A stretch of 64,000 nucleotides of DNA, taken from NCBI RefSeq assembly GCF_013315695.1, contig NZ_CP054353.1. One strand, written 5' to 3'. Below are positions 5,820-8,938 of the stretch, in pieces. Positions within the stretch are counted from its first letter, which is position 1. Each line of letters begins with the position of its first letter. Under the pieces are notes generated by a model. That model made no database searches, was not told the origin of the DNA, and saw nothing but the letters and a program-made list of their open reading frames with translations. The position numbers were made by a program, and so were the translations under genes. Source of the DNA: Escherichia coli. Its GTDB lineage: Bacteria; Pseudomonadota; Gammaproteobacteria; Enterobacterales; Enterobacteriaceae.

Positions 5820-6957
5820 TCAGGCGTCACGCGGTAACCCTTTTTCAATCACCCGAACCAGACGCTGTTTTTTCGGCAATTGCACTTCGACTATGCACGC
5901 ATTTCGTCTCTCTATTTGCTGCGCAATCGCCCACGCTATGTGCTCATCGAGAAGTGGGTGCTCACCTTTACGACTTTCCAGCGCTGTCAAAATCGTTTCA
6001 TCCCAAGGGGCATTGCCTAATGCTACGGCGATATTACGCAGCCAACGCAGGTGACCAATACGACGAATCGCCGATCCTTCCGTGACTTTTAAAAACTTCT
6101 CTTCGCTCCAGGCGAATAACTCAATGAGTTCCGGTGCGTGTAGCGGCTTACGCGGGCTGAAATCCTCTTCTGTGGTGAGTTGTGAATAGCGATTCCACGG
6201 GCAGATAAGCTGGCAGTCATCGCAACCGTAAATACGGTTTCCCATTAACGGTCGCAACTCTTCCGGGATCGCCCCTTCAAGTTCGATGGTGAGATAAGAG
6301 ATACAGCGGCGAGCATCGACGGTATATGGCTCGACGATGGCACCGGTCGGGCAAATCGTCATACAGGCCACGCATTTGCCGCATCCTTCCTCGACTGGTT
6401 GATCCACGGGCAGCGGAATATCGACCAGCAATTCGCCTAAAAAGAAGAACGAACCGGCCTCGCGATTGAGGATAAGTGAGTGCTTACCTGTCCAGCCGAG
6501 CCCAGCTTTTTCAGCTAACGGGCGCTCGAGAATAGGCGCAGAATCGACAAACGGTCTAAAATTCAGCGAAACACAATGTTGCTGAATCATCTCGCCCAGC
6601 TTTTTGAGTCGGTTGCGCAGAAGTTTGTGATAGTCACGGCCCAGCGCATAACGGCTAACATAGCCGAGTTTGGGGTTTTTCAGCGTGCTGGCAAATGCGG
6701 TGTTAGCAGGAAGGTAATTCATCCGCACGCTGATCACGCGCAGCGTACCGGGCAATAACTCATGAGGGCGAGCGCGCAGCATACCGTGACGTGCCATCCA
6801 GTCCATTTCGCCGTGGTATTGTTTGTCCAGCCATGCTTGCAGTTTGGGCTCGGACTCGCTGAGATCGGTATCGGTAATACCTACCTGCTGAAAGCCCAGT
6901 TCCAGCCCCCACTGTTTAATTTTTTGCGCTAACTGATTGAGATCGAGGGGCTCTGAC

Positions 6958-6959
<2 letters not shown>
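5820..6959 (-). CDS. queG: Epoxyqueuosine reductase QueG (YjeS)
   Basis: ORF 5820..7067; conserved start [15 protein letters not shown] at ATG 6957-6959; 4Fe-4S ferredoxin cysteine motifs (CGKCVACMTICP, CDDCQLICP); 379 aa. Confidence 0.9.

Positions 6960-8938
<1,979 letters not shown>

What the first reader, a model, noticed from the sequence alone, without database searches (positions are those of the whole stretch)
6957..6960. queG and nnr start codons overlap divergently on a CATG palindrome
The ATG of nnr (6958-6960, plus strand) and the ATG of queG (6957-6959, minus strand) share two bases. Both promoters and ribosome-binding sites must therefore lie inside the other gene's coding sequence, which is an unusual head-to-head arrangement with potential for transcriptional interference.
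Basis: seen in the sequence. Interest (0 to 1): 0.3.

Follow-up and report, generated by a model that had tools for sequence, protein, structure and literature searches.

The report
Head-to-head queG/nnr start-codon overlap
Two E. coli housekeeping genes that point away from each other really do share two bases of their start codons, each with its promoter inside the other gene, but this is already in the standard annotation and in published lists of overlapping transcripts.

Summary
CATG at 6957-6960 holds the ATG of nnr (+, 6958) and the ATG of queG (-, 6959). RefSeq and K-12 annotate exactly this 2-bp overlap.

The window is E. coli. The overlap is present in 5,425 of 5,426 complete E. coli genomes and in 30 of 36 Enterobacterales species sampled.

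- queG is driven by an extended -10 promoter, TGgTATACT (6999-6991, minus strand), inside nnr codons 12-14.
- The published queG 5' end maps to about 6983.
- The nnr operon starts at about 6570 (-10 TAAAAT, 6557-6562), inside queG codon 133-135.
- The two mRNAs therefore overlap by about 414 nt.

This overlap is published. It appears as a divergent operon overlap (Conway 2014), as double-stranded RNA (Lybecker 2014), as an RNase III/p19 dsRNA cluster (Huang 2020), and as one of 16 divergent "excludons" in E. coli (ExcludonFinder 2025).

New here is the comparative detail. The queG -10 is written into wobble-frozen codons of a conserved Nnr Ser-Leu/Ile-Pro motif. The nnr -10 depends on an invariant rare AGA codon in queG.

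Still open: whether nnr also or instead starts at ATG 6973, and whether the overlap regulates anything.

Verdict: real, rare, already known. Interest is low to moderate.

The parts
6957..6960 (.). CATG shared by the two start codons (nnr ATG 6958-6960 on +, queG ATG 6959-6957 on -); 2-bp coding overlap
   Evidence: Sequence. RefSeq and K-12 annotation. Invariant in 29 of 29 ungapped Enterobacterales sequences.
5820..6959 (-). queG coding sequence (epoxyqueuosine reductase, 379 aa)
   Evidence: ORF. Pfam QueG_DUF1730 and Fer4_16. PDB 5D08 aligns from residue 6. The ATG is conserved even where nnr is not adjacent.
6958..8505 (+). nnr coding sequence (NAD(P)HX epimerase/dehydratase, 515 aa from this ATG)
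   Evidence: ORF. Pfam YjeF_N and Carb_kinase. PDB 2AX3 homologue.
6945..6950 (+). nnr Shine-Dalgarno GAGGGG, inside queG codons 4-5 (Pro-Leu, CCC CTC)
   Evidence: Predicted anti-SD duplex of -7.2 kcal/mol, against -3.2 for ATG 6973. The range is -4.5 to -14.7 in the 28 other species scored.
6973..6975 (+). Second in-frame ATG of nnr (codon 6), a possible alternative start
   Evidence: Weak SD. Codon 6 is ATG/GTG/TTG/CTG/ATT in all Enterobacteriaceae sampled. It is the only in-frame start in MAG L018.
6961..6969 (.). Conserved block ACGGACCAT: nnr codons 2-4 and positions -2 to -10 of the queG leader
   Evidence: 80-100% identity per column, including wobble positions, while nnr codons 5-11 vary freely.
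6991..6999 (-). queG extended -10 promoter TGgTATACT, inside nnr codons 12-14 (Ser-Ile-Pro, AGT ATA CCA)
   Evidence: Wobble bases are invariant. A TGnTAnnnT motif lies 25-60 nt upstream of queG in 59 of 78 gammaproteobacterial loci, against about 3% expected, including loci without adjacent nnr. The PqueG deletion of PMC10950094 removes 6989-7019.
6960..6983 (-). queG 5' untranslated leader (about 24 nt), antisense to nnr codons 1-9
   Evidence: Conway 2014 queG transcript end at U00096.2 4392114 = window 6983, as quoted in the PMC7373196 supplement. This is 7-8 nt downstream of the -10.
6557..6562 (+). -10 hexamer TAAAAT of the nnr-tsaE-amiB-mutL...rlmB operon, inside queG codons 133-135
   Evidence: Lies 7-8 nt upstream of the published operon start at 6570. 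Its first T comes from a rare AGA Arg codon that is invariant in 18 Enterobacteriaceae loci and is CGN in other families.
6570..6957 (+). nnr 5' untranslated leader (about 388 nt), antisense to queG codons 1-130
   Evidence: Conway 2014 promoter coordinate 4391701 and terminator 4408049, as quoted. Coordinate mapping uses.
6570..6983 (.). Region transcribed on both strands (about 414 nt), which forms dsRNA in vivo
   Evidence: Conway overlap 4391701-4392114. Lybecker dsRNA MS-212 4391717-4392100. p19 clusters 4391754-4392109 and 4391759-4392107. 21-22-nt duplex reads cover both start codons.

Best explanation
This is a genuine, evolutionarily frozen head-to-head junction between two unrelated housekeeping genes of E. 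coli.

**Anatomy.** queG is transcribed leftward from an extended -10 promoter (TGgTATACT, 6999-6991) with no usable -35. That promoter sits in nnr codons 12-14. The queG mRNA has a leader of about 24 nt and a weak ribosome-binding site. nnr, the first gene of the long nnr-tsaE-amiB-mutL-miaA-hfq... operon, is transcribed rightward from a -10-only promoter (TAAAAT, 6557-6562) about 390 nt inside queG. It is translated from the ATG at 6958 using a strong Shine-Dalgarno sequence built from queG's Pro-Leu codons.

**Consequence for the RNAs.** The two promoters face each other, so the mRNAs are complementary over about 414 nt. That stretch includes both ribosome-binding sites and both start codons. 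The RNAs pair in vivo and the duplex is cut by RNase III.

**Why the overlap persists.** The start-codon overlap has no translational meaning, because the two codons are on different mRNAs. It is the extreme of a gammaproteobacterial layout in which the queG promoter is written into the conserved N-terminal Ser-Leu-Pro motif of Nnr. That layout forces the two starts to lie within about 0-50 nt of each other wherever the genes are directly adjacent.

**Status of each step.**
- Shown by sequence, annotation and published transcript data: the anatomy, the transcript overlap and the dsRNA.
- Inferred from conservation: the promoter elements and use of the ATG at 6958.
- Inferred only, at roughly even odds: that polymerase collision and duplex degradation make each gene damp the other.
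For: **Annotation and identity.**

**Conservation of the junction.**
- CATG with both proteins aligned from residue 1 in 30 of 36 Enterobacterales species, plus Tolumonas L071 and MAG L064.
- Invariant in 29 of 29 ungapped sequences.
- No indels in the two variant E. coli genomes aligned; all 5,425 E. coli matches span the full junction query at 95% identity or more.

**queG promoter.**
- The wobble bases of AGT-(A/T)TA-CCA are 100% conserved.
- The extended -10 motif is found upstream of queG in 59 of 78 loci against about 3% expected by chance, including loci lacking adjacent nnr.
- Where the genes are separated (Pectobacterium, Brenneria, Photobacterium, Idiomarina), queG keeps the motif. 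Nnr keeps Leu/Ile-Pro with different codons: AGC TTA CCT, GTT TTG CCG, CAG TTA CCG, AGT ATT CCG.
- The published queG 5' end at window 6983 is 7-8 nt past the hexamer.
- An independent PqueG deletion covers 6989-7019.

**nnr promoter.** TAAAAT lies directly upstream of the published operon start at 6570, and the rare AGA codon is invariant in Enterobacteriaceae.

**nnr start.**
- SD duplex of -7.2 kcal/mol for ATG 6958 against -3.2 for ATG 6973.
- The CATG ATG is the only in-frame start shared by all species and the sole canonical start in 12 of them.
- A +15-nt in-frame insertion occurs in Pseudescherichia.

**Transcript overlap and dsRNA.**
- PMC7373196 Table 2 and supplement.
- PMC4161252, which describes the yjeF...rlmB operon.
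- PMC12288877 Table 1, which lists queG-nnr among 16 divergent excludons and yjeV-queG-nnr among 3 noncontiguous operons.
Against: - No initiation-profiling or N-terminal proteomic evidence for the nnr start was found.
- Codon 6 of nnr is a start-like codon in every Enterobacteriaceae locus, and one MAG (L018) can only use that start.
- The transcript ends come from RNA-seq coverage quoted second-hand in another paper's supplement. They are not from 5'-triphosphate-specific mapping that I could read, so they may be off by a few nucleotides and further promoters may exist.
- The consensus promoter scan found nothing in this region. That scan requires a -35 match, which neither promoter has.
- No locus-specific experiment shows that either gene's expression changes when the other's promoter is removed. 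In PMC10950094 the PqueG deletion was assayed only for datA RNA.
Confidence: 0.75

Rival explanations
1. The coding overlap is an annotation convention. Nnr is made mainly or only from the ATG at 6973 (MKKNP...), leaving a 13-nt gap between the two coding sequences. The promoters would still be embedded in the partner genes.
For: - ATG 6973 is in frame.
- Codon 6 is ATG/GTG/TTG/CTG/ATT in all Enterobacteriaceae and in Pantoea.
- MAG L018 has a 1-nt insertion that leaves only this start in frame.
- Both starts lie upstream of the conserved Ser-Ile-Pro motif, so either would preserve it.
- Database entries starting MKKNP exist.
Against: - The SD for 6973 is average (-3.2 kcal/mol) and the one for 6958 is strong (-7.2).
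- Twelve species scored (Siccibacter, Cedecea, Enterobacter sp. Ag1, Mangrovibacter, Mixta, Serratia, Yersinia, Rahnella, MAG L064) have no canonical in-frame start other than the CATG ATG upstream of the motif. By eye Budvicia has none either.
- The MKKNP entries are explained by Prodigal's rule that 5' ends on opposite strands may not overlap.
- The L018 insertion could be a MAG assembly error.
Confidence: 0.2
2. The arrangement has no regulatory role. It is a compaction accident held in place because every base near the junction serves two purposes, so any change is deleterious. The dsRNA is an unavoidable low-level by-product.
For: - Conservation coincides with dual-use positions: start codons, the SD in Pro-Leu codons, and the -10 in Ser-Leu-Pro codons.
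- Related lineages tolerate spacers of 9-100 nt or full separation of the genes.
- The two gene functions have no known link.
- About a third of divergent E. coli operons overlap at the transcript level anyway (PMC4161252).
Against: - The locus is among the 20 most abundant protein-coding p19 dsRNA clusters in stationary phase.
- It is one of only 16 divergent excludons seen in at least 50% of 58 transcriptomes.
- The nnr promoter is placed 390 nt upstream rather than close by, which lengthens the antisense overlap.
- As a class, excludon pairs were reported to be rarely co-expressed in single cells.
Confidence: 0.45
3. The conserved ACGGACCAT block at the junction is a binding site for a protein or RNA that controls both genes together.
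For: The block is 80-100% conserved, including wobble positions, while the next seven nnr codons vary freely.
Against: - It has no dyad symmetry and matches no regulator motif that I can name.
- No Rfam family matches here.
- The block is equally well explained as the last ten bases of the queG leader (its translation initiation region) plus the first nnr codons.
Confidence: 0.07

Closest known systems
Divergent (5'-overlapping) excludon, as defined for Listeria and catalogued for E. coli by ExcludonFinder (PMC12288877)
   Same: Neighbouring genes on opposite strands whose mRNAs overlap at their 5' ends and form RNase III-processed dsRNA. queG-nnr is itself listed in that catalogue.
   Different: Classic excludons have a non-coding intergenic region and functionally opposed genes with demonstrated mutual exclusion. 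Here the coding sequences themselves abut and overlap, the functions are unrelated, and exclusion has not been tested.
Face-to-face (convergent) promoter pairs that cause transcriptional interference, and divergent overlapping operons such as ilvY-ilvC (cited in PMC4161252)
   Same: Two promoters fire towards each other across a shared stretch (here about 414 bp), so polymerases can collide and the transcripts are complementary.
   Different: Those examples carry regulator binding sites in an intergenic region. Here both promoters are embedded in coding sequence and no regulator is known.
Same-strand start/stop overlaps (ATGA, TGATG) with translational coupling
   Same: A few shared bases between adjacent coding sequences, and a compact genome layout.
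   Different: Those lie on one mRNA and couple ribosomes. The CATG codons are on different mRNAs, so no coupling is possible. Divergent overlaps are about 40 times rarer (331 against 12,737).
Noncontiguous operon (Saenz-Lahoya 2019, as cited in PMC12288877)
   Same: yjeV-queG-nnr is listed as one of three E. coli cases. Plus-strand transcription runs across the oppositely oriented queG.
   Different: The published nnr operon start at 6570 shows that nnr also has its own internal promoter. The contribution of read-through from yjeV/glyVXY is unknown.
Bidirectional promoters from symmetric -10 elements (Warman et al., cited in PMC10268837)
   Same: Divergent transcription from a compact region.
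   Different: Those are back-to-back starts about 18 bp apart sharing one -10. Here the two -10 elements are about 430 bp apart and face each other.

Membership tests
Divergent coding-sequence overlap (head-to-head genes) | Both genes are real and lie on opposite strands with 5' ends adjacent | tested here: met
   Pfam domains and PDB homologues for both proteins. RefSeq and K-12 annotation.
Divergent coding-sequence overlap (head-to-head genes) | The queG start codon is the ATG at 6959-6957 | tested here: met
   There is no other ATG/GTG/TTG in frame before the conserved N-terminal helix. The ATG is conserved in 35 of 36 Enterobacterales loci, including those without adjacent nnr. The only upstream in-frame start, GTG 7067, has no support. 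No direct proteomic evidence.
Divergent coding-sequence overlap (head-to-head genes) | The nnr start codon is the ATG at 6958-6960 | tested here: inconclusive
   Favoured by SD strength and by being the only shared start, and often the only start, across species. ATG 6973 cannot be excluded, and no experimental start-site data were found.
Divergent excludon | The mRNAs of the two genes overlap at their 5' ends | tested here: met
   Published coordinates read here: Conway overlap 4391701-4392114, quoted in the PMC7373196 supplement. Listed in ExcludonFinder Table 1. Both ends sit next to conserved -10 elements.
Divergent excludon | The overlapping RNAs form duplexes processed by RNase III | tested here: met
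   Published p19-captured 21-22-nt duplex clusters S-361 and E-284, and Lybecker dsRNA MS-212. This is literature evidence, not recomputed from reads.
Divergent excludon | Expression of one gene lowers expression of the other (mutual exclusion) | not testable with these tools
   No locus-specific data found. Only a class-level single-cell statement exists in PMC12288877.
Extended -10 sigma-70 promoter (queG) | TGn immediately upstream of a -10 hexamer with A at position 2 and T at position 6, a weak or absent -35, and a start 6-8 nt downstream | tested here: met
   TGgTATACT at 6999-6991. The best -35 candidate, TCGGCG, matches 3 of 6 (read). The published 5' end is at 6983. The motif is conserved in 59 of 78 loci. 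Promoter activity itself was not measured here.

The most novel reading that the evidence does not exclude
The junction is a selectively maintained dual-coding module. The queG promoter is locked into the Ser-Leu-Pro codons of Nnr. The nnr promoter is locked into a rare AGA codon of QueG. Both ribosome-binding sites are buried in a 414-bp sense/antisense duplex. Together these would act as a reciprocal switch: high transcription of the nnr-tsaE-amiB-mutL-miaA-hfq operon would lower queuosine-tRNA maturation, and the reverse, through polymerase collision and RNase III. The switch would have been kept since the common ancestor of Enterobacterales and related gammaproteobacteria.
Probability: 0.15. 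Interest if true: 0.5.

Novelty: already known. Interest (0 to 1): 0.22.

Why it matters
As it stands, this is a clean textbook-style example rather than a discovery. It shows that a divergent start-codon overlap, the rarest class of gene overlap, can be real and stable over long evolutionary distances. It also shows where the promoters go when there is no intergenic DNA.

Two practical points follow:
- Gene callers that forbid 5'-5' overlaps (Prodigal) will systematically mis-start one of the two genes. That explains the MKKNP... Nnr entries in sequence databases.
- Anyone deleting or tagging the 5' end of nnr or queG will hit the other gene's promoter or leader. Such constructs are therefore not single-gene perturbations.

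If the antisense overlap turned out to be regulatory, it would link expression of a tRNA-modification enzyme to the operon that carries tsaE, miaA and hfq.

Tried and rejected
- **Consensus promoter/terminator scan** of 6600-7300 and 5600-7400 found no promoter. The scan needs a -35 match, so it is uninformative for -10-only and extended -10 promoters.
- **Rfam scan** of 5600-7400 gave only a far-sub-threshold ilvB-OMG hit at 7166-7351 (21 bits against a gathering score of 95.9). No known RNA element lies at the junction.
- **Single-nucleotide TSS data.** The Cappable-seq GTF supplement is truncated in the held copy. The SMRT-Cappable-seq supplements do not mention the genes. The Thomason dRNA-seq paper is not held. 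The Conway supplements are not held.
- **Start-codon evidence.** I checked the TRAINSPOTTER supplements, the Ribo-RET preprint text and the Salmonella riboproteogenomics supplements. None mentions nnr, yjeF or queG.
- **An SD-sequestering hairpin in the nnr leader** (GGGG at 6947-6950 pairing with CCCC at 6979-6982) was considered and dropped. The CCCC is not conserved.
- **A short upstream ORF in the queG leader** starting at the minus-strand ATG 6969-6967 was considered and dropped. It has no SD, lies about 14 nt from the 5' end, the ATG is missing in Pantoea and Rahnella, and its length is not conserved.
- **A queG start at the upstream GTG 7067** was rejected (weak SD).
I used 50 kb of local context and published counts instead.

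Full report
**What is in the sequence.**
The window is an E. coli chromosome segment. A 1.1-kb piece around the site matches 5,425 of 5,426 complete E. coli genomes at 90-100% identity. It is not K-12 itself, but the gene coordinates around the site are the same as in MG1655.

One search shows CATG at 6957-6960. The plus-strand ATG (6958) opens a 515-codon ORF with Pfam YjeF_N and Carb_kinase domains, which is Nnr. The minus-strand ATG (6959-6957) opens a 379-codon ORF with QueG_DUF1730 and Fer4_16 domains, which is QueG. Both have solved homologues, and B. subtilis QueG aligns from E. coli residue 6.

RefSeq annotates the same 2-bp overlap in every record I opened, including MG1655 (queG 4392928-4394067 minus, nnr 4394066-4395613 plus).

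**Is it more than chance?**
One scan of species-representative genomes with QueG returned 80 loci. In 30 of 36 Enterobacterales species, from Escherichia to Yersinia, Budvicia and Edwardsiella, QueG residue 1 and Nnr residue 1 map to the same CATG. The same is true in Tolumonas and in one gammaproteobacterial MAG.

Three Alteromonadales loci have a candidate CATTG junction, which would be an ATG/TTG overlap of 1 nt. Pseudoalteromonas, Thalassotalea, Grimontia, Psychromonas and Aliidiomarina celeris have spacers of only 9-25 nt; some other adjacent loci have spacers of about 50-100 nt.

Within E. coli, 4,717 genomes are identical over 6925-7010. The two variant genomes I aligned differ only by substitutions outside the core, with no indels. 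In K-12, the eight other divergent pairs in the surrounding 50 kb are 88-354 bp apart.

Published counts make divergent overlaps the rarest class. There were 331 of them, against 12,737 co-directional and 1,890 convergent, in 58 genomes. Only 57 were shorter than 5 nt (PMC2174442).

**Where the signals are.**
Column-by-column conservation shows two blocks on the nnr side that are conserved beyond what the protein needs.

The first block is ACGGACCAT (6961-6969). It covers nnr codons 2-4 and also the last bases of the queG leader.

The second block is AGT-(A/T)TA-CCA-CA (6991-7001), with 100% identical wobble bases. Read on the minus strand, this is TGTGGTA(T/A)ACT, an extended -10 promoter. 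The best -35 candidate matches only 3 of 6.

A TGnTAnnnT motif lies 25-60 nt upstream of queG in 59 of 78 gammaproteobacterial loci, against about 3% expected by chance. This includes loci where nnr is not the neighbour. Four lineages in which the genes have been separated act as natural controls. There, queG keeps the motif, while Nnr keeps Leu/Ile-Pro using other codons: AGC TTA CCT, GTT TTG CCG, CAG TTA CCG, AGT ATT CCG.

A library-wide search shows that LP-x-x-[LIV]-[YFW]-x-A-x-Q-[VI]-R is a common N-terminal motif of proteobacterial Nnr, upstream of the Pfam domain that begins at residue 40. The peptide motif is therefore old, and the promoter is superimposed on it.

On the queG side, the nnr Shine-Dalgarno GAGGGG (6945-6950) is the reverse complement of QueG's conserved Pro-Leu codons.

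**Published transcript data.**
The supplement of Huang et al. 2020 (PMC7373196) tabulates several datasets for this locus in U00096.2 coordinates:
- its own p19-captured dsRNA clusters (4391754-4392109 and 4391759-4392107);
- the Lybecker 2014 dsRNA MS-212 (4391717-4392100);
- the Conway 2014 divergent operon overlap 4391701-4392114, with the plus-strand operon running from promoter 4391701 to terminator 4408049.

I derived the mapping window = U00096.2 coordinate - 4385131 from the K-12 annotation. I checked it against a duplex read that begins with CAUGACGG.

On that mapping, the queG mRNA starts at about 6983, which is 7-8 nt past the conserved -10. The nnr operon starts at about 6570, which is 7-8 nt past a TAAAAT hexamer at 6557-6562.

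The first T of that hexamer comes from a rare AGA arginine codon (QueG Arg135). It is invariant in all 18 Enterobacteriaceae loci and is replaced by CGN in other families.

The mRNAs therefore overlap by about 414 nt, and 21-22-nt duplex reads cover both start codons.

Other published context:
- Conway et al. describe yjeF...rlmB as the most complex operon in their data.
- ExcludonFinder (PMC12288877) lists queG-nnr among only 16 divergent excludons seen in at least half of 58 MG1655 transcriptomes. It lists yjeV-queG-nnr among three noncontiguous operons.
- Kasho et al. 2024 built a PqueG deletion whose primer removes window 6989-7019, which places the promoter where I do.

**Which nnr start?**
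The predicted anti-SD duplex is -7.2 kcal/mol for ATG 6958 and -3.2 for ATG 6973. Across species, the CATG ATG always has a good SD (-4.5 to -14.7). It is the only in-frame start shared by all, and it is the sole canonical start upstream of the Ser-Leu-Pro motif in 12 species. Pseudescherichia carries a +15-nt in-frame insertion between the two sites.

Against this, codon 6 is a start-like codon (ATG, GTG, TTG, CTG or ATT) in every Enterobacteriaceae locus. One MAG has a +1 insertion that leaves only the second ATG in frame.

I found no initiation-profiling or N-terminal data. Database entries starting MKKNP are expected from Prodigal's rule that 5' ends on opposite strands may not overlap, so they are not evidence. 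I put about 0.8 on 6958 being used. Dual initiation is possible.

**How it most likely works.**
The shared CATG has no mechanistic role in translation, because the two codons are on separate mRNAs. The layout follows from embedding the queG promoter in Nnr's N-terminal motif. With a queG leader of about 25 nt and an Nnr start that must precede the motif, the two starts must lie close together, within a few tens of nucleotides. Enterobacterales froze the -2 version.

Shown, partly by published data: face-to-face promoters, complementary 5' regions, dsRNA and RNase III products.

Inferred: polymerase collision and duplex formation, which buries both ribosome-binding sites, reduce the expression of each gene. 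Whether that effect is large enough to matter is untested. A neutral lock-in by multiple dual-use bases explains the conservation about equally well.

**Comparison and novelty.**
The locus fits the published category of divergent excludon or overlapping divergent operons, and it is itself listed there. The feature is therefore already known.

What the comparative work adds is:
- the depth of conservation;
- the dual coding of both -10 elements;
- the natural controls from lineages where the genes separated;
- the annotation pitfall from gene callers that forbid 5'-5' overlaps.

Interest is low to moderate.

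Noticed in passing
window 5784-5837 (+) and 5820-5837: The 17-aa ORF yjeV overlaps the 3' end of queG by 18 nt, convergently. The surrounding glyVXY-to-queG stretch is the datA locus, whose read-through transcription has been studied. yjeV-queG is listed as a convergent excludon.
   Followed up: partly
window 6555-6557 (TCT on +, AGA on -): QueG Arg135 uses the rare AGA codon in all 18 Enterobacteriaceae loci, and CGN in Erwiniaceae, Yersiniaceae and others. The A-to-T complement supplies the first T of the nnr -10 TAAAAT.
   Followed up: yes
window 6973-6975; loci L003-L021: nnr codon 6 is always ATG, GTG, TTG, CTG or ATT in Enterobacteriaceae and Pantoea, but Glu/Lys/Arg/Gln/Cys in other families. 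This could mean a conserved second initiation site or simply a hydrophobic residue.
   Followed up: partly
L018 around 2486-2502 (MAG CTSoil_132): One extra base between the two ATGs puts nnr in frame only from the second ATG. This is either a natural shift to the downstream start or an assembly error.
   Followed up: no
L028 (Brenneria) 2354-2503; L031 (Pectobacterium) 1303-2503: The genes are separated by 147 bp and by about 1.1 kb. The CATG and the extended -10 stay with queG as non-coding remnants of the old nnr 5' end (a stop follows after 4 codons in Brenneria). nnr restarts with a new N-terminus that still has a Leu-Pro motif.
   Followed up: partly
window 8477-8505: nnr and tsaE overlap by 29 nt on the same strand. 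In K-12 coordinates, mutL/miaA overlap by 8 nt and yjfP/ulaR overlap convergently by 4 nt further along.
   Followed up: no
proteins P0004, P0006, P0010, P0143: Public protein collections hold Nnr entries that start at MKKNP (the second ATG). This is consistent with Prodigal's ban on 5'-5' overlaps rather than with biology.
   Followed up: yes
window 6941-6944: A GATC (Dam) site is conserved across Enterobacterales, 14 nt upstream of the nnr ATG. It lies inside queG codons for Asp-Leu. It is probably just a consequence of the conserved codons.
   Followed up: no
window 7166-7351 (+): Weak Rfam match to ilvB-OMG (21 bits, gathering score 95.9) inside nnr. Almost certainly chance.
   Followed up: no
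L001 1732-2151 versus window 5252-5550: In strain 504239, glyV and glyX are 157 nt apart. In the window and in K-12 they are 36 nt apart, so there is a strain-specific insertion between the tRNA-Gly genes.
   Followed up: no
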